A DNA stretch of 41,380 nucleotides, from positions 1 through 41,380 of IMG/VR virus record IMGVR_UViG_3300009514_000007; one strand, written 5' to 3'. Every line of letters starts with the position of its first letter. Position 1 is the first letter of the stretch. Origin of the DNA: a virus. This document shows, piece by piece, positions 4,862 through 18,488 of this stretch. The notes below the pieces were generated by a model. The model had not been told where the DNA came from. It saw only the letters and a list, made by a program, of their open reading frames with translations, and ran no database searches. The position numbers were made by a program, and so were the translations under genes.

Positions 4862-5149
4862 ATGCCCGGCGACAGCACAAGCAAAGGAAACACGAAAACG
4901 ATCGATCTGGCGCTCAAGCTGCTCTCGACGCTTGTGATCCCACTGATCGTGTGGGGCGTGCGCTTGGAGGTCAAAACCGCCATCCAAGACGAGCGGATCG
5001 CTGAATTGGAGGACGACGTTCAGAAGAATTCGGGCATCTCCACGGCGGTTCAAGAGAATTCCCTGACCCTGGTCAAGCTGGAGGCCAAGATCGATTCCGT
5101 AGGAGACAAGATCGATGACATCAAGAAGCTACTGGCTGGTACTCGGTAG
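4862..5149 (+). CDS. Single-TM coiled-coil membrane protein (95 aa); holin-like or i-spanin candidate
   Basis: Hydrophobic stretch LALKLLSTLVIPLIVWGV followed by a heptad-like coiled coil (LVKLEAKIDSVGDKIDDIKKLL). Confidence 0.6.
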   Translation: MPGDSTSKGNTKTIDLALKLLSTLVIPLIVWGVRLEVKTAIQDERIAELEDDVQKNSGISTAVQENSLTLVKLEAKIDSVGDKIDDIKKLLAGTR

Positions 5150-5708
5150 CCTTTTGATCGTCGGTTGCCCCGCAGCGCAGGACGGAGCCCCGGTTCAGGC
5201 GACCCGCGAGATCGAAATCCCCGACACGGGGGATGCCAAACCCGAGGATGTGAAGGGCGATCCCGATCCGATTCCCGAACCGGAATCCGATCCAACCGAG
5301 CCGGAATCCGATTCGGGCGGTGATCCGGGCGGGGCGCTGGCACACATGCCCGACCCTGACCCTCTCGTACCGGATGCTCGGTGGGAACCCAAAACCAAAA
5401 AGAAGCCGAAGGGTGCGGTGTGCCGACCCGACTACGACCTTTTCGACGGCAAGTGCTTCCCCGCTGAGAAGGCCAAGAAGCTCCAAGAGAAACGAGACGA
5501 GAAGCATCTCAAGGAGCTACAGGACGCCAAGACCCCTGTCCAACAAGAGCAGGTGCAGCAAAAGGTCTTGGACGATCAGGTGCAGCAGTTGGATCAGTAC
5601 GAGGACGACCTGGACGAGATTTTGGACGACCTCGCCAAGAAAAAGAAAAAGGGTGAGGGTCCGTTCAACAAAAAGGGCGGCGGCCTTGACGATCCGTTCG
5701 ATGGGTAG
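5115..5708 (+). CDS. Putative lipoprotein (197 aa), Pro/Asp-rich; o-spanin candidate
   Basis: Signal peptide MTSRSYWLVLGSLLIVG|C with an IVGC lipobox. Starts inside the upstream gene in the +1 frame. Has two further Cys and a C-terminal coiled coil. Confidence 0.6.
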   Translation: MTSRSYWLVLGSLLIVGCPAAQDGAPVQATREIEIPDTGDAKPEDVKGDPDPIPEPESDPTEPESDSGGDPGGALAHMPDPDPLVPDARWEPKTKKKPKGAVCRPDYDLFDGKCFPAEKAKKLQEKRDEKHLKELQDAKTPVQQEQVQQKVLDDQVQQLDQYEDDLDEILDDLAKKKKKGEGPFNKKGGGLDDPFDG

Positions 5709-5718
5709 AGTGGGCACC

Positions 5719-6195
5719 ATGACCGATACTCCCAACACCGAAACCGAAACTCCCAAGGACGCCGAGACTGAGGCGGTCACGACCGACGCCGAGACTGTCG
5801 AGGTCGATCCGAACCTGCTCGGGCAGATGGCTCCCGAGGAAGCCAAAAATCTCTACTCCTGGCAGGCCGAGGTTCAACAGCTTCTCAAGGCCGTGGGCGA
5901 AAAAGAGGTTCAGATCAGCCGCATCGAGGCCATGCGCGACGCCAAGGTTGGTGAGAAAAAGGCGATGATCGCCCGCATGGAAACCTTGGAAACGAACGCA
6001 CAGCGGTTGCTTGCGGACGTGCGCAAGCGATTCAACATCACCGACGACATCAATTGGCGGACCCTTCCCGATGGCCGTATCGAGAAGATCGATCCAGACT
6101 TGATCAAGGCCGCACAGGCTGCCCAAGCCCAAGCCCAAGCCCAAGCCCAAGCTCAGGCTCAGGCGCAAGCACAAGGAGCGGCGGAAACGCAGTAG
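5719..6195 (+). CDS. Hypothetical coiled-coil protein (158 aa) with a C-terminal (AQ)n tract
   Basis: ATG 5719 follows the stop at 5708. The upstream part of track ORF 5320..6195 overlaps the lipoprotein gene and is probably spurious. Confidence 0.7.
   Translation: MTDTPNTETETPKDAETEAVTTDAETVEVDPNLLGQMAPEEAKNLYSWQAEVQQLLKAVGEKEVQISRIEAMRDAKVGEKKAMIARMETLETNAQRLLADVRKRFNITDDINWRTLPDGRIEKIDPDLIKAAQAAQAQAQAQAQAQAQAQAQGAAETQ
6121..6174 (+). repeat. Hexamer tandem repeat encoding (AQ)9
   Basis: GCCCAA x5, GCTCAG x2, GCGCAA, GCACAA. Confidence 0.9.
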
Positions 6196-6198
6196 GTC

Positions 6199-7650
6199 AT
6201 GGTTGATCTCGGATGGGCACCGTCAGTAGGAGACAATCCATACCCGCCAGCCAATGTGCAGGTGGTGAGTCCCCTATACAGTGGTGCCCTCGACATCCGT
6301 TGGGATGACCCGAGGATCAACCCCTGCAACTCAGGCTTCGACATCGTTGGGGTCAACATCTATCGCTCCGATACGACGGAGCGCGGACCCTACCATCGGA
6401 TCAACCGCTTTCCCGTTGGGGGCGGCTTCTACCGCGACCAGACCGACAACGCTTTCGTTGAGCGAGAGGTCGTTCACTGGACGCAGGACTGGATCGCGCG
6501 CGGAGAGTCTGCCAACGGGAATCGTTGGACCTTCCGAACTAAGCGGTGCCCGATCGTCAAGAAGGCGGGCCAGGCCATCACGGCGAACAGCCCGGCCGAC
6601 GTGCAGGTGACGATCAACGGTGTGCTCGTTCCGGCCCATGCGGTGTTCGGCACGACCGGCGAGGTCACGTTGATCAATACCGAGACGTTTGACATCGCCC
6701 GGCAGATCAAGCGGCCTCCCGTTTTGCCTGACGAGAACGCGACGGTCACGGTCACGTATTTCTACAACCGCAACCTCGTGGAGCAGAGGCTCGACCAAAA
6801 GCTCTGGTATCGGGTCACGTCGGTTGCTACTTGCCTGGACGAGAACGGCAACCCGCTTACCTCGTCCGGTTACATCGAGACTCCGCTTCGGTTCGCGCAA
6901 CCGATCACGAACCATCAGATCGAGACAATGGATTGGATCTGGCGGGAGGCAATCAGGCGGAACAATTGGATGCTGGAGCAGGGGGGCGAGCGGGTCAAAG
7001 TATTCATCCGCAAGACCAGTGGTACTCCTTGCTTCTGTGGCATTGACCCGCGCTCCATCGAGATCGGACATCAACCTCGCAACAAGTGCGAGCAGTGTTT
7101 CGGTGTCGGCTTCATCGGAGGGTACGAAGGCCCCTACGACCTGATCATTTCGCCCGACGAGGGCGCGGATCGTCGGGTGCGGCAGACTCCCGAGGGCCGG
7201 ACGTTGGAGCATCAGTGGGACGTGTGGACGGGGCCGAGTCCTGCGCTGACGCAGCGTGATTTCATCGTGCGCCAAACGAACGAGCGGTACTCGGTCGGGG
7301 CGGTGCGTAAGCCGAGTGCGCGCGGCAATATCATGCAGCAGCAGTTCCAGATCAAATACCTTGAGGAAAACGACATCCGTTACGAGGTACCGCTGGACGA
7401 CCCCGCAGGCTTGACGTGGCCGGAGTGTCGCGTCCTTCCACCGACGCTCACGGGAGGCGCGTGGCGCCCTGTGGAAGCGTTTGGCCCCCATCCCGAGGGC
7501 GTTCACGAGACGACCCCCCACACCACCGAAAAAGAGAACATCCCTGACGAACGCGAGATTCGCGGCCGTACCGCTGTTTGGGAGAATACGACATACGGCT
7601 TGCTACCTTGGGCGGTATGGCTGGCCGATGGAATTTTTGGGCTCATGTAG
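6199..7650 (+). CDS. Putative neck/head-closure protein with an FN3-like N-terminus and Cys cluster (483 aa)
   Basis: PPANVQV...LDIRWDDP...GVNIYRS looks FN3-like. GERVKVFIRK..G.PCFC...CEQCFGVGFIGGY resembles head-closure proteins of large myoviruses. Neck-cluster position. Confidence 0.55.
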   Translation: MVDLGWAPSVGDNPYPPANVQVVSPLYSGALDIRWDDPRINPCNSGFDIVGVNIYRSDTTERGPYHRINRFPVGGGFYRDQTDNAFVEREVVHWTQDWIARGESANGNRWTFRTKRCPIVKKAGQAITANSPADVQVTINGVLVPAHAVFGTTGEVTLINTETFDIARQIKRPPVLPDENATVTVTYFYNRNLVEQRLDQKLWYRVTSVATCLDENGNPLTSSGYIETPLRFAQPITNHQIETMDWIWREAIRRNNWMLEQGGERVKVFIRKTSGTPCFCGIDPRSIEIGHQPRNKCEQCFGVGFIGGYEGPYDLIISPDEGADRRVRQTPEGRTLEHQWDVWTGPSPALTQRDFIVRQTNERYSVGAVRKPSARGNIMQQQFQIKYLEENDIRYEVPLDDPAGLTWPECRVLPPTLTGGAWRPVEAFGPHPEGVHETTPHTTEKENIPDEREIRGRTAVWENTTYGLLPWAVWLADGIFGLM

Positions 7651-7695
7651 GCCACAATGTCCAAGCGGCACCTACCGCCGGATTTACCGTAACTG

Positions 7696-8313
7696 GTGCC
7701 CGGACGAAGAATTGGCCGTCTGATGTACAAGGTAACTCCAGTTCGCACTGCATACGGCAAGCCCTGGTCTCAGTTGATTGGGGAGATGTCGGTCAACAAG
7801 GATTTCTTGAAAGAGGTCGGCGATATTCTCGTCAAAGCCGTCGTCAAAGAGGCGCGTGCCGACCTCGCCAAGCAGGGCAATCGTCCTACTGCGCGTGGGA
7901 AGGCCGAGGGTATCCCGAACGACGAGAAATTCTTTCAGTCGTTCTCGCATCGGATCACAGGTCGTAGTTCGATCGAGATCGTTTCGACCTGGCCGTGGAT
8001 CGAGCAGGTCATTCAGGGCCGTAGCCCCTACCGGATGCACTGGCTGCGGCAGACCAAAGGGGTGGTAAATGCGCCGCTGTTCTCTGAGCCCGGCAGTCGA
8101 GGTCGCCGTGCTATGCGAAAGGGGAAAGCGGGTTCGCCGGGTAAGGTGCTTATGAGAACCACTCCGGGGAAATTCAAGCGGGGCTGGTTGCACCCCGGTT
8201 TCGCCAAACACAATTTCGTTGACCGTGCCTTCCGCAAAGCCAAGACCGATATTGACGACGCCCTGCTCAAGCGGCTCGATAAGGCGTTGTCGAAATCCGA
8301 CAACATCCGATGA
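7696..8313 (+). CDS. HK97 gp10-like neck/tail-completion protein (205 aa; start uncertain, GTG 7696 or ATG 7723)
   Basis: Very basic protein with an N-terminal helix, a central WIEQVIQG segment and C-terminal HPGFAKHNFVDRAF, typical of gp10-like proteins. Confidence 0.55.
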   Translation: MPGRRIGRLMYKVTPVRTAYGKPWSQLIGEMSVNKDFLKEVGDILVKAVVKEARADLAKQGNRPTARGKAEGIPNDEKFFQSFSHRITGRSSIEIVSTWPWIEQVIQGRSPYRMHWLRQTKGVVNAPLFSEPGSRGRRAMRKGKAGSPGKVLMRTTPGKFKRGWLHPGFAKHNFVDRAFRKAKTDIDDALLKRLDKALSKSDNIR

Positions 8314-9011
8314 AAGAGGCACACGTAATATGCAAGATCACGCAGATCCGATTGCCGGACCTTGGCCTCACCTTGTCCAGCGGCGACGAGATCTGGTTGT
8401 CCGAGCGGGACGCCAGGCGGTCCACGGATCTGCAACATGCTCGTCGGGTGGGAGCCGTCGAATTGCTCTGGCAGGAGAGATGCCGCGTGAGTAGGCCGCC
8501 TGCCCCACCCCACTTTCGCAAGCTCCGTCCCGGCCAGCGTAAACAGGTCGAGGTATCGGTGCCGGAGACAGCGCCTAGCCCTGCGCCCGCTGCTCCGGCT
8601 GTGAGTGCTGACGAGATTGCCAAGAGCGTGAGGGCTACTGTGGCCGCCGAGGTCGCCCGCCAGATGGGCAACTTGGAGGGTCAGATGGACGACATGAAGG
8701 CGGACATCGTGGCTCAGGTGACGGCGGCGATGGCAGGGCAAAAGGGCACGGACCCTGAGCAGTTGGCCGCCATTCTCAAGAGCACCCTGGAGGCGGTGCT
8801 GCCGACTCTCCCGGCTGCCGCTCCCCAAACAGGCCCCGCTGTGGCCCGACGCGACGATCCCCTCTATATCCCGACCGTCGATGTCAGCAAGAAAACCAAG
8901 GGCAAGGTCGAGGTGCAACAGACGACCACCGCAGGTGGTGGCCTAGACGATGCAGCGGCGGCCTTGAAAGCATTGAAACGGAAACGGAAAAAGGACCAAA
9001 CCAATGACTGA
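8310..9011 (+). CDS. Hypothetical protein (233 aa), translationally coupled to the actin-like gene
   Basis: ATGA overlap with the upstream gene and an 8-nt overlap with the downstream gene. Pro-rich linkers, central helical region and a basic C-terminus (LKALKRKRKK). Confidence 0.75.
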   Translation: MKEAHVICKITQIRLPDLGLTLSSGDEIWLSERDARRSTDLQHARRVGAVELLWQERCRVSRPPAPPHFRKLRPGQRKQVEVSVPETAPSPAPAAPAVSADEIAKSVRATVAAEVARQMGNLEGQMDDMKADIVAQVTAAMAGQKGTDPEQLAAILKSTLEAVLPTLPAAAPQTGPAVARRDDPLYIPTVDVSKKTKGKVEVQQTTTAGGGLDDAAAALKALKRKRKKDQTND

Positions 9012-10023
9012 AATGCACCCCGGAGTAGGATTGGATTGCGGCACGATGAATTTCGTTTCCGCACGGCTGACGGACGAGGGAATTCGTACTCGTCGGATGC
9101 GAGATGCGTTTCTCGACCTCCCGCTGGAGAGCAAGAAGATGCTCAAACTCGGTGGGGTCAACTACGTCGAGATGGGCGAGGGCGACGACAAGGTACTCGT
9201 CGTCGTTGGTGACGCCGCGATGGAGTACGCCAATCTGTTCGGCAAGGACGTTCGGCGACCGCTCCAAGCGGGGCTGATCTCTGCTGGTGAGATCGACGCG
9301 ATCGACGTGCTCGGTGTTTTGGTCAAGCACGTCCTCGGTGACCCGACCGTGCCCGACGAGTATTGCTACTTTTCGGTTCCGGCGGCTCCGGTGGACGACC
9401 CGTCCAAGAACGTGATCTACCACCGTGGCGTGTTGGAGCGGATCATCGGAGCGTGTGGGTACACGCCCGTGGCCTCCAACGAGGCCCTGGCGATCATCTA
9501 TGCCGAGACAGCCAAGGACGGGTTCTCGGGCATCGGTATCTCGATGGGCTCGGGCATGAGCAACGTCGCGCTCGCCATCGGCACGATCGAGGGGCTGTCG
9601 TTTTCGGTGGGTCGCGGCGGCGACTGGATCGATCAAGGCGCTGCGTCGTCCCTGGACTCCACGGCGGCGAAGATGTGCGCGCTCAAGGAGAAGGGCATCG
9701 ATCTGATGAATCCGACGAGCCGCGAACAAGAGGCTTTGGCGGTCTATTACAAGCATCACATTGAGTACGTGCTCGACCTGTTCATCGCTGAATTCGTCAA
9801 GATCAAGGACAAGTTCGCCATCCCCAAGGCCATCCCTATCGTCGTCGGCGGAGGTACCAGTCTCCCCGATGGCTTCATGCCGTTTTTCCGTCAGGTGTTC
9901 GACGCCAAGAAGCGCAAGTTTCCGATCGAGATTTCGGAGGTCCGTCACGCTTCTGCCCCGCTCAATGCGGTGGCGCATGGCTTGCTGATTCAAGCGGGGC
10001 AAGAGTACGAGGACGATGAATGA
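9004..10023 (+). CDS. Actin-fold ATPase (MreB/MamK-like, 339 aa)
   Basis: The actin/Hsp70 motifs occur in order: phosphate-1 VGLDCGTMN, connect-1 NEALAIIY, phosphate-2 GIGISMGSGMSNV, GRGGDWID, adenosine IVVGGGTSLPDGF and connect-2 PLNAVAHGL. The size matches MreB-type actins. Confidence 0.85.
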   Translation: MTEMHPGVGLDCGTMNFVSARLTDEGIRTRRMRDAFLDLPLESKKMLKLGGVNYVEMGEGDDKVLVVVGDAAMEYANLFGKDVRRPLQAGLISAGEIDAIDVLGVLVKHVLGDPTVPDEYCYFSVPAAPVDDPSKNVIYHRGVLERIIGACGYTPVASNEALAIIYAETAKDGFSGIGISMGSGMSNVALAIGTIEGLSFSVGRGGDWIDQGAASSLDSTAAKMCALKEKGIDLMNPTSREQEALAVYYKHHIEYVLDLFIAEFVKIKDKFAIPKAIPIVVGGGTSLPDGFMPFFRQVFDAKKRKFPIEISEVRHASAPLNAVAHGLLIQAGQEYEDDE

Positions 10024-10312
10024 CGAGTTCGATACAAGGAAAGCGAAGATCGTAGATCGCTTGACCGAGGCTATACGTGACCTTTCCGAGCTTTACGCCA
10101 ACCACCCTGAGCAGGTTGCTCAGTGTGTGGACGAGCCTACGGCGACCATCACCGTGTTCTCGCGGAAAGGTGGTGAGACAGCCGAGATCGTCAATGCTTT
10201 TCCGGTGTCCAGCCAGCACACGTCTTGGGATGCAGACCGAGACGCGTACATTTGGGGGCCGGTCGTTTACTGCGTCTTTGGGGTATCCCGAGGCGAATTA
10301 CCTATCCACTAG
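10016..10312 (+). CDS. Hypothetical protein (98 aa)
   Basis: Overlaps the actin-like gene stop by 8 nt, with GAGGA upstream. Confidence 0.6.
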   Translation: MNDEFDTRKAKIVDRLTEAIRDLSELYANHPEQVAQCVDEPTATITVFSRKGGETAEIVNAFPVSSQHTSWDADRDAYIWGPVVYCVFGVSRGELPIH

Positions 10313-10356
10313 CAACAGGCCAAACAGGCCACAACCACAACCACAAGGACAAGAAC

Positions 10357-10734
10357 ATGACACGCAAGCAAGTTGCGGACACAAAACAGGATGGGGTCAC
10401 GCCCATCGCCTTCATCGTTGGCACTGTCTCTGAGTACCTTCACAGGACCGGAAGCAAGGACTGCCCATGCAGTCACACTTTCCCTGGATGCGCCGTGTGC
10501 AGGCCGCATCACGCGGGTTTCCAGATTCAGGCGGCGATGGCGGACGAGCGGGTTGCCCGAGTGATGGCTCATGCCCGTCACGAGAGTGTGCGCTCGATCT
10601 TCATGCGCAACGACACCCTGCCTACGGGCAAGGCGCTCGACACCGCCTTTTGGTCGCTGGCCCTGCAAGGGGTTAGTGAGCCGGTGCTCGGCCAGCTTCG
10701 GGCGGCCAGCGAGGCACAGCGGGAGGTCGCCTGA
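10357..10734 (+). CDS. Hypothetical protein with a putative Zn-binding H..CPC...CxxC motif (125 aa)
   Basis: AAGGA SD before ATG 10357. Contains YLHRTGSKDCPCSHTFPGCAVC. TGATG coupling to the next gene. Confidence 0.65.
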   Translation: MTRKQVADTKQDGVTPIAFIVGTVSEYLHRTGSKDCPCSHTFPGCAVCRPHHAGFQIQAAMADERVARVMAHARHESVRSIFMRNDTLPTGKALDTAFWSLALQGVSEPVLGQLRAASEAQREVA

Positions 10735-11021
10735 TGGCTGGCAAGACTCTCACTCAACTCATGCGCGCGAAGGTGATCGAAACGGAGCACACGGCCCCAC
10801 GGATCACTGGCGAATTCAATGTCGCCGTCCCCGTCCCCGGCGGGTTTCGGATCGAGCGTAGATCGAATATGGACGATAGCTGGATCGAGGACTACGACCC
10901 TGAGCGATGGGGCGTAATTGGACCTGCGGGCATCATCCATGTCCCCGATCTTGGCCTGCGCCGGGAGGCCGCCGCTAGGGTGGCTATGCGCTATCGTAGT
11001 CGAAGGGCTGCGATCACGTAG
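10734..11021 (+). CDS. Hypothetical protein (95 aa) with a C-terminal AARVAMRY motif
   Basis: TGATG-coupled start, with GGAGG upstream. Confidence 0.7.
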   Translation: MAGKTLTQLMRAKVIETEHTAPRITGEFNVAVPVPGGFRIERRSNMDDSWIEDYDPERWGVIGPAGIIHVPDLGLRREAAARVAMRYRSRRAAIT

Positions 11022-11036
11022 CCGGAGGGTACGGCC

Positions 11037-12314
11037 ATCTACTTTCAACTCACAGATTCGGTACAACGTCGCTTCATCTTGGAGCTACGTCGGTTCTGGT
11101 CGTACCACCCGAAATTTCGGGACATCGTTGATCACATCCAGGGCAAGTATTCGTGGAAGGAACGCCCACAGCGGGGCATCGTGCTCAAGAACAGTAGCGG
11201 CAACCAGTTCCAACTGGCGGCCGACAACTTTCAGGGCACGGTGTTCTCGCACATCCACCAAGCACGGGTGGAGAACTACCCTGGAGTGGCCTTGGAGTGG
11301 GTTCGGGAGGACGGTCGCGCGATCCAGCGCAACAACGGCATCTTCCCGAGCGCTCCGGGCATTTACTACATCGAGATCACCCACGTCGCCGAGAATTGCT
11401 CGTACTTTGAATTCTACATCGACCCCCTACTCGACGTGGTAGGGGAGTCGGTGACGATGGTGAGCGAGACGGTTGGGGTGCTCCAGTCGGGTAAATTCCT
11501 CGACGGCACGCTCCGCCTGTTCCAGATGCCTGGCAATGTCCCGCTCTTTGAGGGGATCAACTACACGGCCGACACGGACACGGGCGAGATAACGCTCCTG
11601 ATCCCGCTCCCCGAGGGTGGGTTCCTGTCTGCCGAGTATCGCTGGCCCGCTTCGACCAACGCTGAATCGGCCGCTGTGCGTCCCCTGGACGCCGCTGGTA
11701 ACGCTCAGCCGTGGACGGGGATGCCTAACCGGGGGCTGATCGAACCGCTCCCTGGAGTCGTGCTCGCGTTTGGGACACGCATCGAGGAAGGCGATCGGAT
11801 GGCGGTCGTCGTGGGGCACAACCGGGCTCCGACCGCGCAGGAGTATGGGGGCCGGTGGAACCTTTCGATCGATTTCGACGTGATGGCCCGAGATCCGTAT
11901 GACCAACGCGAGATTTTGGATCGCACCATGCTCTATCTCTGGGCCGTGCTTCGTTCTCGCCTGAGCACGGAGGGTATTGAGATCGAGGCGGTGAACGGTG
12001 GGGGCGAAACCGAGGAAATTTACGACGAGAACGGCGACGACTATTTCTACAACGCCAGCTTCTCGGTTCAGATCCAAACGGACTGGTCGATCCATGTTCC
12101 GATCGCGGCCACCATCCAGCGCGTCCAGCCGGTGTCGTTGAGCGTTGAGCAGCAAGCGGCCTCCATGACGCCCGAGGAAATCGCCATGCTGGAGAGCAAT
12201 TTCCAAATGCTCGATGGCATGGGGCTCAAGCTGGTGGACGACCCGTTCTTTGGAGGCCGTCCCGGCAGGAATCCAATTCTGCCCCGATCCTCCACGTTTG
12301 AGGTCATTCGGTAG
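11037..12314 (+). CDS. Putative tail terminator/tail-completion protein (425 aa if the AUC start is used; the track starts at TTG 11079)
   Basis: GGAGG at 11024-11028, then 8 nt, then in-frame ATC (IYFQLTDSVQRRFILELRRFWSYHP). The C-terminal LSIDFDVMARDP..QREILD...YFYNASFSVQIQTDW resembles tail terminators. Located just before the sheath. Confidence 0.6.
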   Translation: MYFQLTDSVQRRFILELRRFWSYHPKFRDIVDHIQGKYSWKERPQRGIVLKNSSGNQFQLAADNFQGTVFSHIHQARVENYPGVALEWVREDGRAIQRNNGIFPSAPGIYYIEITHVAENCSYFEFYIDPLLDVVGESVTMVSETVGVLQSGKFLDGTLRLFQMPGNVPLFEGINYTADTDTGEITLLIPLPEGGFLSAEYRWPASTNAESAAVRPLDAAGNAQPWTGMPNRGLIEPLPGVVLAFGTRIEEGDRMAVVVGHNRAPTAQEYGGRWNLSIDFDVMARDPYDQREILDRTMLYLWAVLRSRLSTEGIEIEAVNGGGETEEIYDENGDDYFYNASFSVQIQTDWSIHVPIAATIQRVQPVSLSVEQQAASMTPEEIAMLESNFQMLDGMGLKLVDDPFFGGRPGRNPILPRSSTFEVIR

Positions 12315-12386: not shown

Positions 12387-12415
12387 AATCCCGCTTTGTG
12401 ACGGAGGACTGTCCG

Positions 12416-12919
12416 ATCCCGATCTACGAGTACCAGTGCGCCGCGTGTGGCCTGAGATTTGAGAAGATGCTGAGCGCTACCAAAGCTGCGGCTGACCAGC
12501 CGTGCTCGCGGTGTGAAGCCGTCTCCCCTCGCTACCTCTCGGCCCCCTCGTTTGCTTTTGGTGGACGGTCGGATGGCGCCCGCCCGCAGAACACGGGGGC
12601 GACGAGCGTGGACCTGGATTGGGATCGTGCCGTGGGGCGTGACGCCGAGGTTCAGTGGGAAGCGGTGTCCGCGCGGCTCGCTCGCAAGCGACAGATCATG
12701 GCCGAGACAGGAGCGACGGGATTCGATCTCACCGCGACTCCCTCGACCGAAGCCGAAGGCCCCTCGGACTACCGAGTGATGCGGCCGGAGGAACGACGCG
12801 CTGCGGAGACAGCGCGAAGCCTTCACCACGGAGCGGTCAACAAGATCAAGGCGTTCATCGCCGACCGCAAGCAACAAGATTCCCGGCCGCGTGCGGCTGG
12901 TGAAAGGCCCCGCTCGTGA
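12416..12919 (+). CDS. FmdB-family zinc-ribbon protein (167 aa from a probable AUC start; the track starts at GTG 12398)
   Basis: (I)PIYEYQCAACG.RFE...CSRC matches the FmdB N-terminal consensus MPIYEYxCxxCG. GGAGG at 12403-12407 lies 8 nt before the ATC that occupies the Met position. Confidence 0.75.
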   Translation: MPIYEYQCAACGLRFEKMLSATKAAADQPCSRCEAVSPRYLSAPSFAFGGRSDGARPQNTGATSVDLDWDRAVGRDAEVQWEAVSARLARKRQIMAETGATGFDLTATPSTEAEGPSDYRVMRPEERRAAETARSLHHGAVNKIKAFIADRKQQDSRPRAAGERPRS

Positions 12920-13166
12920 GAGTGGCGTCCAACCTGAGCGGCATCGCCGCCAAATGTAAATCGACCAACAAATAGACGTACCGGGCACTCGCCCACTTTG
13001 CGCTGACTACCTCCCTTCGGGGATGGACACGACCCGACAGATCAACAGTAGCGACGGAACCCAACTGAAACGCACCGGCCCCAATGCAAGGGCCTAACTG
13101 GAACGCTACTCGCGGCAAATTTGCCGCCACAGGGATCGTTTGTCCCTAAATCGAACGAGGTGAGTG
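12920..13166 (+). promoter_or_regulatory. Structured non-coding leader upstream of the tail sheath
   Basis: Hairpins at 12938-12950, 13012-13023 (cUUCGg), 13112-13127 (perfect palindrome GCGGCAAATTTGCCGC) and 13131-13147. Long-range stem AGTAGCG (13047-13053) with CGCTACT (13104-13110). Confidence 0.45.
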
Positions 13167-16100
13167 ATGGCCTTTCCCGGCTCGGTATACGCGCCCCCAA
13201 GTGTTTACACGCAAACGCTTTTCAACAACCCGGTTCAAGCCGCTGTCACGGGGGTTCGCATCCCCGTGTATCTCGGCACCGGCAACGAGATCCTGACCCA
13301 AGAGGACTTGCAAGTAGTTCGTGGGTCGAGTGCGTCCGTTGACCAACAGGTTCCCAAGGAAGATCTCGACGGCCGCGCGGTCGCCGACATCCTGGCTTCG
13401 GGCCAGGTGATCCTCGGCAACTTTGACGGTTCGCGTCGGCTCGTTCAGGTTCGCAATTTCCCGATCGTGACGGGCGACGGCAGCGGGACAACCGCCGTCA
13501 ACGCGGCGAACATTCGGGTGACGATCAATGGTCGTCCCGATGTGGTTCTGACCGTCCGTGGCGACGAGGGAATTCTGGAGCTTTCGACGGCGCCGACCCC
13601 GGAGGACGAGGTTCGGGTCACGTACTTTTTCAACCGCACGGACACTCAGGCGACCGACAATGTGTCGGCCCAAGTGACCCCGAGCGCGGCGATCATCCGG
13701 GGGCTCAACGGCGAGCCCGTGGGTGGGTACGAGGTACTCCCCGGCAACAACACCCTGATCGTCAACGTGGACGGTGAGGATGTTGTCGTGGATTTCGGCA
13801 CCGGGTTCAAATCCGCTGCGACCCTCGTCTCCCTGATCAATGGTGCAGGTGCGGCGACCTCACTCACCGCCACGACCTACGGCACCAACTTTGGGGAGAT
13901 CGCGGTCGCTCTGACCGCTGGCGAGGATTTGGAGATCGGGGCAGGCTCGGCCAATACCCTGCTCGGCTTCACCACTGGAGACTCCACAAGCCGTCAAAGG
14001 GTGTTCTACACCTACAACGGCCCCATCGTTGAGGGCGACAATGGCGGTATCACCACGACCGACCCCTCCAAGGTCACGGTCACGGTGGACGGTCAAGAGG
14101 TCGTTCCCTCGGCGGTCAACGGCCAGACTCGTGGCGTGACCCTGCCCTTCGCGCCGCCCTCTGGCTCGACGGTCGAGATCACCTACTTTTGGAACACCTG
14201 GCAGGACACGTTCGACTACCTGGCGCACATCAATGTCACGGACATTCAGCGCGTCGGAATCGTGCCCGGCAACAGCGATTTCATCGAGCAGGCGGACTAC
14301 GTTCTCAAGAACGACCTGATCGTGTGGGGCACCGCTGCTCTGATCGAGAGCGGGGTCAACACCCAAGGCACCGCCCTTTTCAACGAATCGCAGGTCACTG
14401 CAAACCTCGTGGACGTTCAGAGTTTCCTGAGCGTGGCGACCCCGGTGACGGACACCACCGTCAACCCGCCGCTCACGAGCACGACTCGGTTCCAGCTTCC
14501 GCTCCAGCCCACGACGGGCAACGGGCGCAACACTCCGCTTGGATCGGATCTGTTCCAGACGGTGAGCAACGGTCGAATCGACCTGCCCACGAACCGCCCG
14601 GATCTCGTCCAGGCGTATTGGGGCTGGTCCGTGCAGGACGCTCTGGAGCGCGGCCAGGTCACGGTTTTGCGTGTCGAAGGCACCGAGATCACGCTCGCAG
14701 AGGCCGTCCCGGTCGGTGCGACGGTCTACGCGACCTTCTACTACAACACCCTCGTTGACGAGGAATACACCCTTGAGGTTGACGTGCCCGGCCCCGCTGG
14801 CATCGGCACGTATTTCGTCAAGGACAAGAATGGTCGTGACCTGTTCACCCCGCGTTTTGGCGCGAAGGGTGCCCTGCTCACGGGCATCACGGTCCAGTTC
14901 CCGAGCGGGTCGGAGCTTACGCCCGACGTTCGCTTTGAGAGCGGATCCCAGGGGCCGGTCGAGGAAACCGTCACGGTTACCTTCGCCAACAAGGACGCCA
15001 CGCTTGCCAAGTACAGCGTGCCTGGCTCGGGTCCGTATTTCACGATCACGGACGCCTCGGACCATGCTCGGTTCACCATCGACAGCACCGCGCTCACGGG
15101 TGGCGGCGCTGGCATCGACCTGAGCCGCGTCGATGGCATCGAGGGCCTTGGCTTCTCGGCTCACCTGCTCGGTGAGGAAATCGCCTACACGGCTGCTTCG
15201 GGTCTTACGACCTACGATGTCGAGTCTGGCGTGAATGACGAGCTTGCGCTCACCCTGGACGGTGTGACGATCACCGTTTCGGTTCCGCCTGGAACCGGCG
15301 TGGATGCTAGCCGCTACGTTGACGCGATCAATGAGCAGGCCAAGAGCACGGACAACCCGACCGTTTACACGGCGGCGACCCGCTTCACGGGCGCAACCGA
15401 GATCACGGCCGGCGAGTACGACAAGTTCACGTTCCACTACAACGGCGACGTGGCTGGCCTCTCGGGTCCGCTGGCGATCACCATTCCACCCGGCACCTAC
15501 AACAGCCCGGCGACCCTCGCTACGGCGATTCAGGGTGTCGTGACTGCCGCCATCGGTGGTCTGGGCGCTCCCTTTGCCGGGTTGGCCCTCACGGTGGGTG
15601 CGAATGCGAACGGCCAACTGACCTTCGCTCTCGATGCCGCCACGGGTGACAAGGGAACGGCGTGGACCGACACCATTACGGTGACGGGCGCTCCGCTCCC
15701 CGTTCCGGGCGACACGGTGGACATCACCGACCCGCTCGGCAACGTCGAGACGTTCACCGCGACGGCCACTGCGACCGTGATCGGATCCGGGGCACGCAAC
15801 TTTGACGTGTCCTCGGGTGTTGCGGCGACGATCGCTACCGAGCTTGACTCGGCGATCAATGACCCGACCAACGGCATCGCGGACACCCTTACGTCCGTCC
15901 CGGTCGGTGCGACGTGTGTTCTCACGGCGGTCGATGTGGGCGTGGTGAGTAACCTGATCAGCATCGCCTTCACGGGCACCATCGGTGCCTTCACCCTCGT
16001 CGGCGCCGTCCCCGGTACCGCAGCGGGTGGTGGCTACCTGGAATTCCTCGATGGCCCCTCGGCCGCAGAGGATTTCTCGGTGCTCGCAGGCATCTCCACT

Positions 16101-18488
16101 GACGCTGCCGTGGGCGGGAACCAGACCAAGGTTCTCAACTGCGACATCGTTCGTCGGTTCACGGTGGCGGGTACCTCGGGCGCCCTGATCTACGACCGTA
16201 TCCTGGTCCGCAACCGTATCGTGCCGGGCTCTGGTTCGGTGAGCCCCGTCCCGCAGGTTGGGCAGACCCAACTCAAGGTCGAAGGCAACAGCGGCATCGA
16301 GGAAAGCGGCCTGTTGCCGAACAGCGAGGGCCAGGCTGGAATGCGCGCGACCGTGCAGCCCGCCACCCTGCTTGGGCGGGTTGGCTTTGCAGCCGGGCAG
16401 ATCGCATCGGGCACCTTTGGTGACGAGCGCGACGGTCAACCGACCGTCCAACTCTTTGCCGAGGGCGGCACGAGTCCGCAGAACAACGTGTTCAAGATCA
16501 ACATCGACGGCACTCCCGTTGAGATCGTGTTCACGGACGCTCTGGGCGTGGCGATTCCCGTTGCGGGTTCCGCCGATGTTCCGCTCGGGCCTCTCGGTTC
16601 ACCGGACACCATCCTCACGCAGCTTGACACTGCGCTGGCTGCTGCTGGCGTGACGGGTGCGGTTCGTCAAGAGGGCGCGGGGATCCGATTCACCAGTCAG
16701 GTGACGGACACGACCTCCGCTGTCACGATTGACGACGGAAACGCCAACGACACGCTCGGTTTCGTGGCGGGTACCAGCGACGACCGCGACCCGGTGGACC
16801 CCGAGGTTATGGCCTCGGCTCTGATGTCTCACCACAGTGCTTCGCCTGCGGTCGAGTACCTGTCTTGGGACAGCCCGTCTACGACGCACTTTGCGGGGCT
16901 CGCCCTCGCGGGTGTGATCCGCGACCAGGCCAACGCCGAATTCCTCTACATTCAGTCGCAAGCCGCGACCGTAGGTGGGCTTGGCGTCTCCAGCAACATC
17001 GCACTCACTCAGCCCGCATCGCCGAATGGTTCGTGGCTGCTTCCGGGTACGAACCTGCTCGCCGAGGTTGGCGACGGGGCCTCGGGCGAGGAAGGCGTTT
17101 CGGGCTTTTTCGTCACGTCTTCGGATTCGACGCGAGGCTCGGGATCGGCCAACACGTCCGTTCTCAACAGCGGGACCGGCCAAGACGGCTGCGTGGATCA
17201 GACGTACCGGGACACCGTTACGGGCCTCACCTTCACGGTGTTGGAGCGCGAGGGAGGCGGCACGTACCCGACCGGGGCAACGGCGACCTTCACCTTTGAG
17301 GTACGTCGCAAGGTCACGACCGACAGCAACCTGCCGGTCAACGTCCTTCCCGGTGTCGAGCTTCTGGTCACGAACACCAGCGGCATCGGCGTGGGTGACA
17401 CGGCCATCGTGACCACCGTGGAGCGCGGCGGAAACGAGCCCGCGATCGGCGACCTGTACTACGTCACCTACGACTACACGAAGGACAATTTCGCTACGGC
17501 TCTGTTCACTCGGTTGGCGACGATCGAGGCAAACTACGGTCGGGTCGCGCAGGAGAACCTTGTCTCCCTGGCGTCCTTCTTGGGGATCATCAATGGTGCC
17601 GTCATCGTGGGTATCAAGCAGGTGCCCAAGCAGCCTGGGTCGAATCAAGCGACGGTGCAGGACTACCGTGACGCGATCATTGACCTGCGCGGGCCGCTTC
17701 CGGGTGGACTCTCGCTCGATCAGATCACCCCGTTGCGGGGAGATAGCGCGGACCTGTACTCGTTCCTGAGAGTGGAGAACGACATCCAGTCGTCCATTCG
17801 CTACCGTCAGGAGCGGACCTCGATCATCGGGGCGGGATCGGGCACGCAGATCAGCGAGGCGGGCGACCTGGCGGAAGCCCTGTCGGCAACTCGTATGCGG
17901 CTTGTCTACCCGGACATCGCTACCATGACCCTCACCGATGCGATCGGAAACGACGAGGAAATCCTGGTAGACGGCACGTTCCTGGCCTCCGCGCTCGCAG
18001 GGAACCGAGTGAGCCCGAACATCGACGTGGCGACGCCGTGGACCGGCGCCCGCCTGGTCGGGTTCAATCAGCTTGCTCGCACCCTCGATGCGGTGGAGCA
18101 GAACCAGCTTGCCGTTCGCGGTGTGACGGTTCTGGAGGATCGCGCTCCGAGCATCCGGGTCCGTCAGGGGCTCTCCACGGACATCAGCAACGTCCTGACC
18201 AAGACCCCGACCGTGATCACCATCGCGGACGAGGTACAGCGCCAGGCTCGCGTGACGCTGGATCGATTCATCGGCGTCAAGTTCCTGCCGACGATCCTCC
18301 AGCAGATCGAAGGTCGCATGACCTTCATGTTCAAGGGGCTGTCCTCGGCGGAGATCATCACCACGTTCACCGGCATCCGAGCCACGACCACGGCGGACCC
18401 CACGGTTGTCGAGGTCGAGGCGTTCTACCAGCCGGTGTTCCCGCTGCTCTACATCGTCGTGACGTTCAACTTGCGCTCGACCCTGTAG
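13167..18488 (+). CDS. Contractile tail sheath protein, exceptionally large (1773 aa) with many inserted beta-rich domains
   Basis: N-terminal YAPPSVYTQ is a PGVY-like sheath start. The C-terminus is sheath-like (EQNQLAVRGVTVL...RVRQGLST...IADEV...RFIG...VEVEAFYQPVFPLLYIVVTFNL). GAGGTGA SD. Followed by the tube gene. Confidence 0.85.
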   Translation: MAFPGSVYAPPSVYTQTLFNNPVQAAVTGVRIPVYLGTGNEILTQEDLQVVRGSSASVDQQVPKEDLDGRAVADILASGQVILGNFDGSRRLVQVRNFPIVTGDGSGTTAVNAANIRVTINGRPDVVLTVRGDEGILELSTAPTPEDEVRVTYFFNRTDTQATDNVSAQVTPSAAIIRGLNGEPVGGYEVLPGNNTLIVNVDGEDVVVDFGTGFKSAATLVSLINGAGAATSLTATTYGTNFGEIAVALTAGEDLEIGAGSANTLLGFTTGDSTSRQRVFYTYNGPIVEGDNGGITTTDPSKVTVTVDGQEVVPSAVNGQTRGVTLPFAPPSGSTVEITYFWNTWQDTFDYLAHINVTDIQRVGIVPGNSDFIEQADYVLKNDLIVWGTAALIESGVNTQGTALFNESQVTANLVDVQSFLSVATPVTDTTVNPPLTSTTRFQLPLQPTTGNGRNTPLGSDLFQTVSNGRIDLPTNRPDLVQAYWGWSVQDALERGQVTVLRVEGTEITLAEAVPVGATVYATFYYNTLVDEEYTLEVDVPGPAGIGTYFVKDKNGRDLFTPRFGAKGALLTGITVQFPSGSELTPDVRFESGSQGPVEETVTVTFANKDATLAKYSVPGSGPYFTITDASDHARFTIDSTALTGGGAGIDLSRVDGIEGLGFSAHLLGEEIAYTAASGLTTYDVESGVNDELALTLDGVTITVSVPPGTGVDASRYVDAINEQAKSTDNPTVYTAATRFTGATEITAGEYDKFTFHYNGDVAGLSGPLAITIPPGTYNSPATLATAIQGVVTAAIGGLGAPFAGLALTVGANANGQLTFALDAATGDKGTAWTDTITVTGAPLPVPGDTVDITDPLGNVETFTATATATVIGSGARNFDVSSGVAATIATELDSAINDPTNGIADTLTSVPVGATCVLTAVDVGVVSNLISIAFTGTIGAFTLVGAVPGTAAGGGYLEFLDGPSAAEDFSVLAGISTDAAVGGNQTKVLNCDIVRRFTVAGTSGALIYDRILVRNRIVPGSGSVSPVPQVGQTQLKVEGNSGIEESGLLPNSEGQAGMRATVQPATLLGRVGFAAGQIASGTFGDERDGQPTVQLFAEGGTSPQNNVFKINIDGTPVEIVFTDALGVAIPVAGSADVPLGPLGSPDTILTQLDTALAAAGVTGAVRQEGAGIRFTSQVTDTTSAVTIDDGNANDTLGFVAGTSDDRDPVDPEVMASALMSHHSASPAVEYLSWDSPSTTHFAGLALAGVIRDQANAEFLYIQSQAATVGGLGVSSNIALTQPASPNGSWLLPGTNLLAEVGDGASGEEGVSGFFVTSSDSTRGSGSANTSVLNSGTGQDGCVDQTYRDTVTGLTFTVLEREGGGTYPTGATATFTFEVRRKVTTDSNLPVNVLPGVELLVTNTSGIGVGDTAIVTTVERGGNEPAIGDLYYVTYDYTKDNFATALFTRLATIEANYGRVAQENLVSLASFLGIINGAVIVGIKQVPKQPGSNQATVQDYRDAIIDLRGPLPGGLSLDQITPLRGDSADLYSFLRVENDIQSSIRYRQERTSIIGAGSGTQISEAGDLAEALSATRMRLVYPDIATMTLTDAIGNDEEILVDGTFLASALAGNRVSPNIDVATPWTGARLVGFNQLARTLDAVEQNQLAVRGVTVLEDRAPSIRVRQGLSTDISNVLTKTPTVITIADEVQRQARVTLDRFIGVKFLPTILQQIEGRMTFMFKGLSSAEIITTFTGIRATTTADPTVVEVEAFYQPVFPLLYIVVTFNLRSTL

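What the first reader, a model, noticed from the sequence alone, without database searches (positions are those of the whole stretch)
8310..10023. Actin-fold ATPase encoded inside a phage neck/tail morphogenesis operon, coupled to a candidate adaptor gene
Seen: 9004..10023 carries all actin-superfamily motifs in order. It sits in a chain of overlapping genes (gp10-like neck gene, 8310..9011, actin, 10016..10312) between neck genes and the tail terminator. The phosphate-2 Asp typical of MreB (DIGGG) is replaced by Ser (ISMGSG). Established: jumbo phages use tubulin-like PhuZ, and known phage/plasmid actins (ParM, AlpC) act in DNA segregation together with a DNA-binding adaptor. Inference: co-expression with late structural genes suggests a filament that positions or transports capsids/tails or scaffolds virion assembly. 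The upstream helical protein with a basic tail (LKALKRKRKK) is a candidate adaptor. This is the best candidate for an undescribed system in this window.
Basis: partly seen in the sequence, partly recalled or inferred. Interest (0 to 1): 0.85.

Follow-up and report, generated by a model that had tools for sequence, protein, structure and literature searches.

The report
Huge-phage actin with its tethering partner
A very large uncultured phage encodes, among its neck and tail genes, a highly conserved actin-like protein of the volactin family plus a partner protein that probably ties it to a virion-module protein, which suggests these phages build their own actin filaments late in infection.

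Summary
ORF 9004..10023 (339 aa) is a full-length member of Pfam Volactin (PF25216, E 1.6e-65). Its AlphaFold model (pLDDT 95) is closest to the filament-forming actins MamK and MreB, not to Hsp70. The window is the start of a 116-kb IMG/VR virus record, about 22% of a huge phage.

The phosphate-2 Ser is not a local oddity. It marks the whole family (176 of 180 sequences), and the literature reports that Mad28, which shares the SxGxG motif, polymerises in vitro.

The phage proteins form their own clade at 60-82% identity. This clade is separate from MreB and from a chromosomal Planctomycetota clade at about 43% identity.

The upstream gene 8310..9011 is a conserved partner with three parts: a folded N-terminal domain, a coiled coil, and a C-terminal YIP motif plus basic helix (ALKALKRKRKK). 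Relatives that lack the actin keep a short protein with the N-domain only, in the same slot. Actin and C-module occur together or not at all (43 versus 6, none discordant), with at least three independent co-losses. Planctomycetota chromosomes carry an analogous partner-actin pair.

Polymerisation, partner binding and a role in virion assembly or positioning are inferred, not shown. One complete 536-kb relative lacks the actin, so it is not universal. This scan found the same system before on other phage DNA. I found no paper that describes it.

The parts
9004..10023 (+). Volactin-family actin-like ATPase, 339 aa
   Evidence: Pfam PF25216 E 1.6e-65, full length. AF2 pLDDT 95.4, pTM 0.92. Foldseek best hits are the MamK filament (TM 0.72/0.75), MreB and BeeR. 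It is 60-82% identical to homologues on huge-phage contigs.
9034..9045 (+). Phosphate-1 motif D11-C-G13-T14
   Evidence: D, G and T are invariant in the phage clade and nearly so in the whole family.
9481..9483 (+). Connect-1 Glu160 (NEA). It aligns with the Glu in four MreB sequences.
   Evidence: E in 175 of 180 family members and in the MreB outgroup.
9541..9555 (+). Phosphate-2 motif S180-M-G182-S-G184, with Ser where other actins have Asp
   Evidence: S in 176 of 180 family sequences, phage and cellular; D in MreB. Mad28 has the same SxGxG and polymerises in vitro (PMC10653835).
9850..9858 (+). Adenosine motif G283-G284-T285
   Evidence: Invariant in the phage clade; conserved across the family.
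10003..10020 (+). Acidic C-terminal tail (EYEDDE), typical of the phage clade
   Evidence: Alignment A2. The Planctomycetota proteins end differently.
8310..9011 (+). Partner (candidate adaptor), 233 aa, translationally coupled to the actin gene
   Evidence: The family is conserved directly upstream of the actin in related loci. 81 database homologues, none with a Pfam domain. AF2 model.
8310..8477 (+). Partner N-terminal domain (residues 1-56), five strands and two short helices
   Evidence: pLDDT 95-98. Actin-less relatives keep it alone, in the same gene slot. No significant fold match.
8607..8735 (+). Partner long helix (residues 100-142), coiled-coil-like
   Evidence: AF2 helix, pLDDT 77-90. 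VIA-align returns only coiled-coil matches, Z below 5.
8862..8876 (+). Partner LYIPT motif (Y/F-I-P; P188 invariant)
   Evidence: Alignments A3 and A4. Absent from the short partners of actin-less phages.
8943..9002 (+). Partner C-terminal basic amphipathic helix (..DAAAALKALKRKRKK..)
   Evidence: A218 and L219 are (nearly) invariant. AF2 helix 212-231. Present only where the actin is present. Resembles the C-terminus of the Planctomycetota partner: hhalign P 5.5e-5 over the last 55 residues.
7696..8313 (+).
   Evidence: Conserved in nearly all related loci. It travels with partner and actin in both copies in record G005, and it is kept in actin-less relatives. The only family hint is a weak PHROG_5 'tail completion/Neck1' match, E 0.077.
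6199..7650 (+). Conserved 483-aa gene at the head of the array
   Evidence: 38-47% identical in related loci and in the same order. No family assignment.
10016..10312 (+). Small overlapping ORF, 98 aa; not conserved and not part of the system
   Evidence: In relatives this place holds other genes, or the terminator gene follows directly.
11079..12314 (+). Tail-terminator-like gene, the downstream anchor of the array
   Evidence: 76 related viral loci. Atlas: viral clusters at 0.92, SP10_terminator at 0.88, Gp37/Phage_tail_terminator at 0.80.
13164..18488 (+). Giant sheath-like gene, 1774 aa
   Evidence: Atlas on residues 1330-1774: DUF2586, Phage_sheath_1C and tail-sheath clusters at 0.90-0.93. 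Conserved next to the terminator gene in relatives.

Best explanation
The pair 8310..9011 and 9004..10023 is a phage-borne actin cytoskeleton module.

Shown: the 339-aa protein is a volactin-family actin with an intact nucleotide-binding site and a MamK/MreB-like fold. It belongs to a phage-specific clade. It is nearly always preceded by a partner gene.

Inferred:
1. The actin is made together with the neck and tail proteins and polymerises with ATP into filaments.
2. The partner's C-terminal module (the Y/F-I-P motif plus the basic amphipathic helix ALKALRK) binds the actin.
3. The partner's long helix makes it a dimer or oligomer.
4. The partner's N-terminal domain is a fixed member of the neck/tail gene array even in phages without actin. 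It binds a virion part or an assembly intermediate.

Together these steps would tether virion components to filaments, to gather, align or move them during late assembly of a very large particle. The module looks like an add-on to the morphogenesis array, not an indispensable part of it.
For: Identity:
- Pfam Volactin at 222 bits; AF2 pLDDT 95.
- The best structural matches are filament formers: the MamK filament at TM 0.72/0.75, then MreB, BeeR and actin. No Hsp70 appears in the top 50.
- All nucleotide-binding residues are conserved.

Polymerisation is plausible:
- VolA forms dynamic filaments in vivo (PMC10869688).
- Mad28, with the same SxGxG phosphate-2, polymerises in vitro and forms filaments in E. 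coli (PMC10653835).

Phage-specific and constrained:
- The core phage clade is supported at SH 97 and is separate from MreB and from the Planctomycetota clade.
- The actin is 60-66% identical where its neighbours are 25-54% identical.
- Inteins sit in close homologues right after the phosphate-2 loop.

Conserved position:
- The order is 6199-like, 7696-like, partner, actin, (variable genes), terminator, Zn-ribbon, sheath.
- Junctions overlap and there is no internal + strand terminator-like site.

Partner coupling:
- The partner's C-module and the actin co-occur in 43 unique cases and are both absent in 6. None is discordant (two apparent exceptions are ORF-overlap artefacts).
- Co-loss happened at least 3-4 separate times on the terminator tree. 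In all 3 independent pairs the two traits go together.
- Both actin copies in record G005 carry their own partner and 7696-like gene.
- About 70 Planctomycetota chromosomes have an analogous upstream partner ending in IAANLARLKKLKGGG. Its C-terminal similarity to the phage partner gives hhalign P 5.5e-5.
- In some bacteria the partner's N-terminal part is fused to the actin (P0162, P0192).
Against: - Nothing here shows polymerisation, ATPase activity, partner-actin binding, timing of expression or location in the cell.
- A relative rated 100% complete by CheckV (536 kb) has the same array but no actin. Only 39 of 67 terminator-anchored loci have the actin within 10 kb upstream. The virion can therefore be built without it.
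- The fold and the binding target of the partner's N-domain are unknown.
- Homology between the phage and Planctomycetota partners is suggestive only (hhalign probability 17% full length, 66% for the C-terminal part).
- The co-loss statistic rests on few independent events (sign test p 0.25).
- The neighbours' identity as neck and tail genes rests on atlas leads and gene order, not on HMM or structural matches.
Confidence: 0.5

Rival explanations
1. A DNA-positioning or partition system of the AlpAC/ParMR kind. The partner's N-domain would bind phage DNA, and the filaments would place or separate replicating genomes, or a plasmid-like carrier state.
For: The gene order, adaptor upstream of the actin and co-transcribed, matches alpA-alpC of prophage CGP3 (PMC4446434). 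Some cellular family members carry a ParB-type HTH fused to the actin (P0139). Salactin, another haloarchaeal actin, aids DNA partitioning (cited in PMC10869688).
Against: - The pair lies inside the morphogenesis array with overlapping junctions, not in an early or replication region.
- There is no intergenic space and no iteron-like repeats near it.
- The N-domain protein stays in the same slot between the 7696-like gene and the terminator gene in phages without actin. That fits a virion-module protein better than a centromere binder.
- The N-domain has no DNA-binding family or fold match, although absence of a match is weak evidence.
Confidence: 0.15
2. An assembly chaperone or virion component rather than a cytoskeletal filament. 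An actin-fold ATPase would help fold or join very large tail, sheath or neck parts, or would itself be built into the particle, as closterovirus Hsp70h is.
For: The gene is placed among structural genes next to a 1774-aa sheath-like gene. In the viral structure library the nearest matches include many Hsp70 homologues. Very high conservation is typical of structural core proteins.
Against: There is no Hsp70 Pfam match and no substrate-binding domain. The best solved-structure matches are filament formers, with no Hsp70 in the top 50. The characterised proteins with this signature, VolA and Mad28, form filaments. A complete relative with the same array lacks the gene.
Confidence: 0.15
3. Host take-over. 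The phage actin and partner would copy or hijack a host volactin-type cytoskeleton to change cell shape, size or division for the benefit of a huge phage.
For: Planctomycetota chromosomes carry a related actin-plus-partner pair beside a true MreB. VolA acts in cell-shape change (PMC10869688). The module is dispensable in some relatives, as accessory genes often are.
Against: The phage clade is not nested in the Planctomycetota clade. It spans phage contigs from 38% to 64% G+C, which argues against mimicry of one host's protein. The partner's N-domain belongs to the phage's own morphogenesis array. The placement is fixed among late structural genes.
Confidence: 0.12

Closest known systems
Volactin (VolA, HVO_2015) of Haloferax volcanii; Pfam PF25216
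   Same: Same Pfam family, matched at full length and far above the cut-off. Actin fold. VolA forms dynamic filaments in vivo (PMC10869688).
   Different: VolA is a chromosomal archaeal gene acting in the rod-to-disk shape change. This one is a phage gene in a morphogenesis array with a dedicated upstream partner. No VolA sequence was compared directly here.
Mad28, magnetosome-associated actin-like protein of Thermodesulfobacteriota, Nitrospirota and Omnitrophota
   Same: The diagnostic motifs reported for Mad28 (phosphate-2 SxGxG instead of DxGxG; connect-1 without the Pro) are the ones seen here. Mad28 has a MamK-like fold, polymerises in vitro and forms filaments in E. coli (PMC10653835).
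   Different: Mad28 is a cellular protein linked to magnetosome genes.
AlpC/AlpA of Corynebacterium glutamicum prophage CGP3
   Same: A phage-borne actin-like protein with an adaptor gene directly upstream in one operon. The adaptor binds the filament (PMC4446434).
   Different: AlpAC are early genes. AlpA binds repeats in phage DNA, and the system supports replication. Here the pair is in the neck/tail array, no repeats are nearby, and the partner's N-domain is a standing member of that array. It is a different actin family: no sequence match appeared in any search.
PhuZ tubulin spindle of nucleus-forming jumbo phages
   Same: A phage-encoded cytomotive filament in very large phages. PhuZ filaments deliver capsids and organise late assembly (PMC9067925, PMC8314001).
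   Different: PhuZ has a tubulin fold, not an actin fold. No adaptor of this kind is known for it, and it is not encoded in the neck/tail array.
ParM/ParR of plasmid R1, and relatives such as Alp7A/R and AlfA/B
   Same: An actin filament plus a small adaptor whose C-terminal helix binds the actin. That is the model for how the basic C-terminal helix here may work (my knowledge, not tested).
   Different: In ParMRC the adaptor gene lies downstream of the actin gene and a centromere lies beside them. Here the adaptor is upstream and there are no repeats. No ParM family match.
MamK and MreB
   Same: The nearest solved structures. The only PDB sequence match is MamK, at E 0.037.
   Different: No MreB_Mbl Pfam or NCBIfam match. 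Asp is replaced by Ser at phosphate-2. A long branch separates them in the tree. Genomes with the cellular relatives also have a true MreB.
Chromosomal partner plus volactin-type actin pair of Planctomycetota (uncharacterised)
   Same: A two-gene module with the same order. The partner has an N-domain, a coiled coil and a C-terminal basic helix (IAANLARLKKLKGGG) like the phage ALKALRK. The actin is about 43% identical.
   Different: It has a different partner N-domain, sits on chromosomes up to 7 Mb outside any phage context, and forms a separate clade. No function is known.

Membership tests
Pfam Volactin (PF25216) | Full-length match to the family HMM above the gathering score | tested here: met
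   222.1 bits against a 35-bit cut-off; residues 8-331 on profile positions 3-321 of 321. Own-genome scan gave 221.8 bits.
Pfam Volactin (PF25216) | Actin fold with four subdomains and a complete nucleotide-binding site | tested here: met
   AF2 pLDDT 95.4. Foldseek to MamK, MreB, BeeR and actin. D11, G13, T14, E160, G182, G184, G283, G284 and T285 are conserved.
Pfam Volactin (PF25216) | Family signature: Ser in place of Asp at phosphate-2 | tested here: met
   S180 here. S in 176 of 180 family sequences against D in 4 of 4 MreB.
Pfam Volactin (PF25216) | Dynamic polymerisation, as shown for VolA | not testable with these tools
   Needs purified protein or live-cell imaging.
MreB | Match to MreB_Mbl (PF06723) or TIGR00904 | tested here: not met
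   No Pfam match at E up to 0.1. No NCBIfam match. Genomes with cellular relatives have a separate MreB at E 1e-130.
MreB | Placement inside the MreB clade | tested here: not met
   MreB is separated by branches of 1.33 + 1.33 changes per site, support 100.
ParMRC-type partition system | Actin gene followed by an adaptor gene, with centromere repeats beside them | tested here: not met
   The adaptor is upstream, the junctions overlap, and there are no iteron-like repeats in 7500-11100.
AlpAC-type phage actin system | Adaptor gene directly upstream of, and co-transcribed with, the actin gene | tested here: met
   8-nt overlap at 9004-9011. The order is conserved in relatives.
AlpAC-type phage actin system | Adaptor binds repeats in phage DNA; early expression | not testable with these tools
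   No repeats nearby and the context is a late gene array, but binding and timing need experiments.
AlpAC-type phage actin system | Sequence relationship to AlpC | not tested
   No AlpC sequence was at hand. No such match appeared in the PDB, Pfam or viral-structure searches.
Hsp70/DnaK chaperones | HSP70 family match and a substrate-binding domain | tested here: not met
   No HSP70 Pfam match. The protein ends after the actin fold at 339 aa. No Hsp70 among the 50 best solved-structure matches.
Mad28 | SxGxG phosphate-2 and connect-1 without Pro | tested here: met
   ISMGSG and NEAL here, compared with the motifs printed in PMC10653835.
Mad28 | Sequence clustering with Mad28 proteins | not tested
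   No Mad28 sequence was available. Relatives of the Desulfosarcina member are unnamed PF25216 proteins, many from Magnetococcales MAGs.
PhuZ/TubZ phage tubulins | Tubulin/FtsZ fold | tested here: not met
   The fold is actin.

The most novel reading that the evidence does not exclude
Huge phages of this lineage run an actin-based assembly line. Filaments of a phage-specific volactin-type actin would be coupled, through an adaptor whose N-domain is itself a neck/tail-module protein, to heads, tails or neck complexes. They would gather or move these parts for head-tail joining. That would be the first actin-driven virion morphogenesis known in prokaryotes, built from a cytoskeletal module shared with Planctomycetota.
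Probability: 0.3. Interest if true: 0.85.

Novelty: new variant of a known kind. Interest (0 to 1): 0.7.

Why it matters
Known phage cytoskeletons are few: PhuZ/TubZ tubulins, and actin-like AlpC and plasmid-type Alps that act on DNA. This is a different actin family. It is widespread in uncultured huge phages, with hundreds of distinct proteins on contigs up to about 500 kb.

It is also wired differently. It sits in the neck/tail gene array, and its partner combines a virion-module domain with an actin-binding-like tail. If the filaments act on virion parts, intracellular transport or ordering by actin would extend to phage assembly.

The pair gives a simple handle for testing this: two small genes, with a defined C-terminal peptide.

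The finding also draws attention to an unstudied actin-plus-partner pair on Planctomycetota chromosomes. It ties the SxGxG actins (volactin and Mad28; Bbp and saltatorellin were not tested here) into one picture.

Tried and rejected
- **Neighbour annotation by HMM.** Pfam and PHROG scans of 24 neighbouring proteins gave no usable family. Own-record scans for Phage_sheath_1C and T4 gp19 found nothing, and GPW_gp25 gave only a sub-threshold hit outside the window. PDB sequence searches with the sheath-like and terminator-like proteins found nothing. The neck/tail labels therefore rest on atlas leads and gene order.
- **Is the 339-aa gene the major capsid protein?** A scaffold-like gene precedes it and it is very conserved, so I considered this. 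I rejected it because the fold is actin.
- **Fusions of the phage partner with the actin.** None were found. Only the cellular partner's N-part is fused in some bacteria.
- **Fold of the partner's N-domain.** VIA-align against 48,161 chains returned only coiled-coil matches to the long helix. Foldseek's best was E 0.2.
- **Homology of phage and Planctomycetota partners.** HMM-to-sequence search found nothing. A first hhalign gave P 0.14. With a deeper profile it gave P 0.0014 for the full length and 5.5e-5 for the C-terminal part. This is suggestive, not proof.
- **Centromere-like repeats.** None were found.
- **Relatives among deposited phages.** Only two unannotated metagenomic huge-phage records came up.
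- **Names for family members.** These gave nothing beyond 'hypothetical' and 'actin-like ATPase involved in cell morphogenesis'.
- **Literature.** Searches for a description of this phage actin found none.
- **Not reachable.** A direct comparison with VolA, Mad28, Bbp or saltatorellin sequences was not possible with the remaining caps.
Full report
**What is there**

The window is the first 41,380 bases of a 115,952-base IMG/VR virus record that CheckV rates as 22% complete. It is therefore a piece of a huge phage.

On the + strand the genes 7696..8313, 8310..9011, 9004..10023 and 10016..10312 overlap head to tail. The overlaps are ATGA at 8310 and 8 nt at 9004, with AAGGA nine bases upstream. 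No + strand terminator-like site lies between 5151 and 13300.

The 339-aa product of 9004..10023 matches Pfam Volactin (PF25216) over its whole length, at 222 bits against a cut-off of 35. No MreB, HSP70 or ParM family matches. By sequence the only solved relative is MamK, at E 0.037.

An AlphaFold model built on 113 homologues has pLDDT 95.4 and pTM 0.92. Its best solved-structure matches are the MamK filament (TM 0.72/0.75), then MreB, BeeR and eukaryotic actin. No Hsp70 is in the first 50.

**The Ser at phosphate-2**

In an alignment of 180 family members the position is Ser in 176, phage and cellular alike. Four MreB sequences have Asp there. All other nucleotide-binding residues are conserved: D11, G13, T14, E160, G182, G184, G283, G284 and T285.

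The same SxGxG motif, and a connect-1 without Pro, are reported for Mad28. Mad28 polymerises in vitro and forms filaments in E. coli (PMC10653835). VolA forms dynamic filaments in vivo (PMC10869688). The Ser is thus a family mark and does not argue against filament formation.

**Distribution and descent**

- There are 1755 homologues at E up to 1e-3 among the 90%-identity clusters. The best 120 are 62-82% identical and lie on contigs up to 375 kb.
- There are 982 clusters at 50% identity.
- 18 IMG/VR loci were fetched with the actin as query.
- GenBank phages hold only two relatives, both unannotated metagenomic huge phages: LR745208.1 (485 kb, 63% identity) and LR756511.1 (595 kb, 29% identity).
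- The viral structure library has only distant matches at about 12% identity.
- A scan of one genome per prokaryote species found 458 relatives. The five best (50-64%) are short contigs in MAGs of discordant taxa, and four of them carry the phage partner, so they are phage contigs.
- The next roughly 75 (39-45%) are on Planctomycetota chromosomes up to 7 Mb. One is in Desulfosarcina variabilis.
- Four genomes tested (three Planctomycetota and Desulfosarcina variabilis) also have a true MreB.

In a FastTree phylogeny rooted on MreB, the core phage clade (39 rows) has support 97. It lies apart from the Planctomycetota clade.

**Synteny**

The recurring order is: 6199-like, 7696-like, partner, actin, (variable genes), terminator-like 11079, Zn-ribbon 12398, sheath-like 13164.

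The actin is the best conserved gene of the set, at about 60-66% identity against 25-54% for its neighbours. The small gene 10016..10312 is not conserved.

HMMs do not recognise the neighbours. The protein atlas places 11079..12314 near tail-terminator families (0.88 and below, after unnamed viral clusters at 0.92) and the C-terminus of 13164..18488 near sheath families (0.90-0.93). This agrees with earlier notes of this scan. I treat the neck/tail labels as probable, not proven.

**The partner**

The product of 8310..9011 belongs to a family with no Pfam domain: 81 database members, on contigs up to 512 kb. Its model shows:

- a confident N-terminal domain (residues 1-56, pLDDT 95-98, five strands and two short helices);
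- a disordered linker;
- a long helix (residues 100-142) and a shorter one (149-163);
- a second disordered stretch holding an invariant Y/F-I-P motif;
- a terminal basic amphipathic helix (residues 212-231, ..ALKALKRKRKK).

No fold could be assigned to the N-domain.

**The key comparative result**

Starting from the terminator gene I fetched 76 related loci. Of the 67 with at least 3 kb upstream, 39 have the actin within 10 kb.

Relatives without the actin still have a gene between the 7696-like gene and the terminator gene. That gene is short (124-167 aa). It consists of the N-domain followed by a non-conserved tail, and it lacks the Y/F-I-P motif and the terminal helix.

Over 49 distinct N-domain proteins:

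- the C-module and the actin are both present in 43 (41 counted directly, plus two that are ORF-overlap artefacts);
- both are absent in 6;
- they are never discordant.

On a tree of the terminator proteins the loss happened at least 3-4 times. In all 3 independent contrasts the two traits changed together. That is too few for a significant sign test (p 0.25), but there is no exception.

Record G008, rated 100% complete at 536 kb, has no actin anywhere. Record G005 has two actin copies away from the terminator, each with its own partner and 7696-like gene.

**A cellular counterpart**

On Planctomycetota chromosomes the volactin-type gene is preceded by a partner of about 250 aa. That partner has a different N-domain, a long coiled coil, and a C-terminus ..LESNMDNIEVKQK.GGGIAANLARLKKLKGGG.

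Divergent phage partners end in ..NIKAKERK...IAANLAALKKLKKK. Profile-profile comparison gives P 0.0014 for the full length and 5.5e-5 for the last 55 residues, with probability 66%. In some bacteria the cellular partner's N-part is fused to the actin (P0162, P0192). Shared descent of the actin-binding-like module is likely but not proven.

**Mechanism**

Shown:
- family membership, fold and intact active-site residues;
- a phage-specific clade and a conserved position in the array;
- the strict association of the actin with the partner's C-module.

Inferred:
- the actin polymerises;
- the partner's C-module binds it, by analogy with ParR-ParM and AlpA-AlpC;
- the long helix oligomerises the partner;
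- the N-domain binds a virion part or assembly intermediate, because it is a fixed member of the morphogenesis array whether or not actin is present.

The outcome would be virion parts tethered to filaments during late assembly. Because complete relatives lack the actin, the module is an add-on, not a requirement.

I put this reading at 0.5. The rivals are DNA positioning of the AlpAC kind (0.15), an assembly chaperone or virion component (0.15) and host cytoskeleton take-over (0.12).

**Novelty**

Phage cytoskeletal proteins with adaptors are a known kind (PhuZ, AlpAC). What differs here is the actin family, the placing in the neck/tail array, and the partner that couples a virion-module domain to an actin-binding-like tail.

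I found no paper describing this. This scan has met the same system before on other phage DNA. Follow-up agents there reached the same basic reading.

New here are:
- the co-loss of the actin and the partner's C-module, with the N-domain retained;
- a complete relative that lacks the actin;
- the duplicated triad in G005;
- the published Mad28 evidence that SxGxG actins polymerise.

Noticed in passing
Proteins P0121, P0126 and about 20 other ~700-aa homologues; insertion point corresponds to window ~9565-9620: Close homologues of the phage actin (up to 63% identical) are interrupted by inteins. One has an HNH endonuclease and one a LAGLIDADG endonuclease. Both are inserted just after the phosphate-2 loop.
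   Followed up: partly
L005, L006, L007, L009, L011, L012, L015, L016 (low-GC relatives), around the actin module: A multi-copy gene family (1-8 copies per locus of 11-17 kb) shares an N-terminal helix of the type M(R/K)RSASEIIRNLE.RIARLE, followed by unrelated C-terminal parts. In L006 and L009 copies lie between the partner and the actin. The family is absent from this window's record and from the high-GC relatives. It may be a shared targeting or docking peptide.
   Followed up: partly
L026-L099 (Planctomycetota chromosomes), match at about 6001-6980 of each locus: About 70 Planctomycetota genomes, including Kuenenia and Brocadiaceae, carry a conserved chromosomal pair. It consists of a coiled-coil partner (N-terminus ..TATLDELR.EGRKRVRLIRAEHIA.., C-terminus ..IAANLARLKKLKGGG) and a volactin-type actin. 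Two Planctomycetota genomes tested also have a true MreB. This looks like an unstudied cytoskeletal system.
   Followed up: partly
P0139, P0155, P0170 and P0176 (cellular family members): Domain fusions occur in the cellular branch: a ParB-type HTH ahead of the actin (P0139), and an actin followed by Wzz and a ParA/MinD-type (BY-kinase-like) P-loop ATPase region in an 1160-aa protein (P0176).
   Followed up: no
L185 and L186 (record G005, 297 kb): One related phage has two copies of the triad 7696-like gene, partner and actin. They are on opposite strands about 160 kb apart, and neither is next to the terminator gene.
   Followed up: partly
Own record outside the window, G000:C1:52726-52884 (L100): A weak, sub-threshold match to the baseplate family GPW_gp25 (E 0.0046, 13.7 bits) lies in a 385-aa open frame. 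It is a possible baseplate wedge gene.
   Followed up: no
window 12398..12919: A Zn-ribbon protein (Zn_ribbon_8, E 2.4e-9) is conserved directly after the terminator-like gene in relatives.
   Followed up: no
window 5115..5708: A 197-aa ORF whose N-terminus looks like a lipoprotein signal (..LLIVGC..), followed by a Pro/Asp/Glu-rich region. It sits inside the + strand late block.
   Followed up: no
L083 and P0354-P0473: The Desulfosarcina variabilis chromosomal member heads a large PF25216 clade with many proteins from Magnetococcales MAGs. The published 'big bacteria protein' Bbp (PMC10580974) and Mad28 may belong near it. This was not tested.
   Followed up: partly
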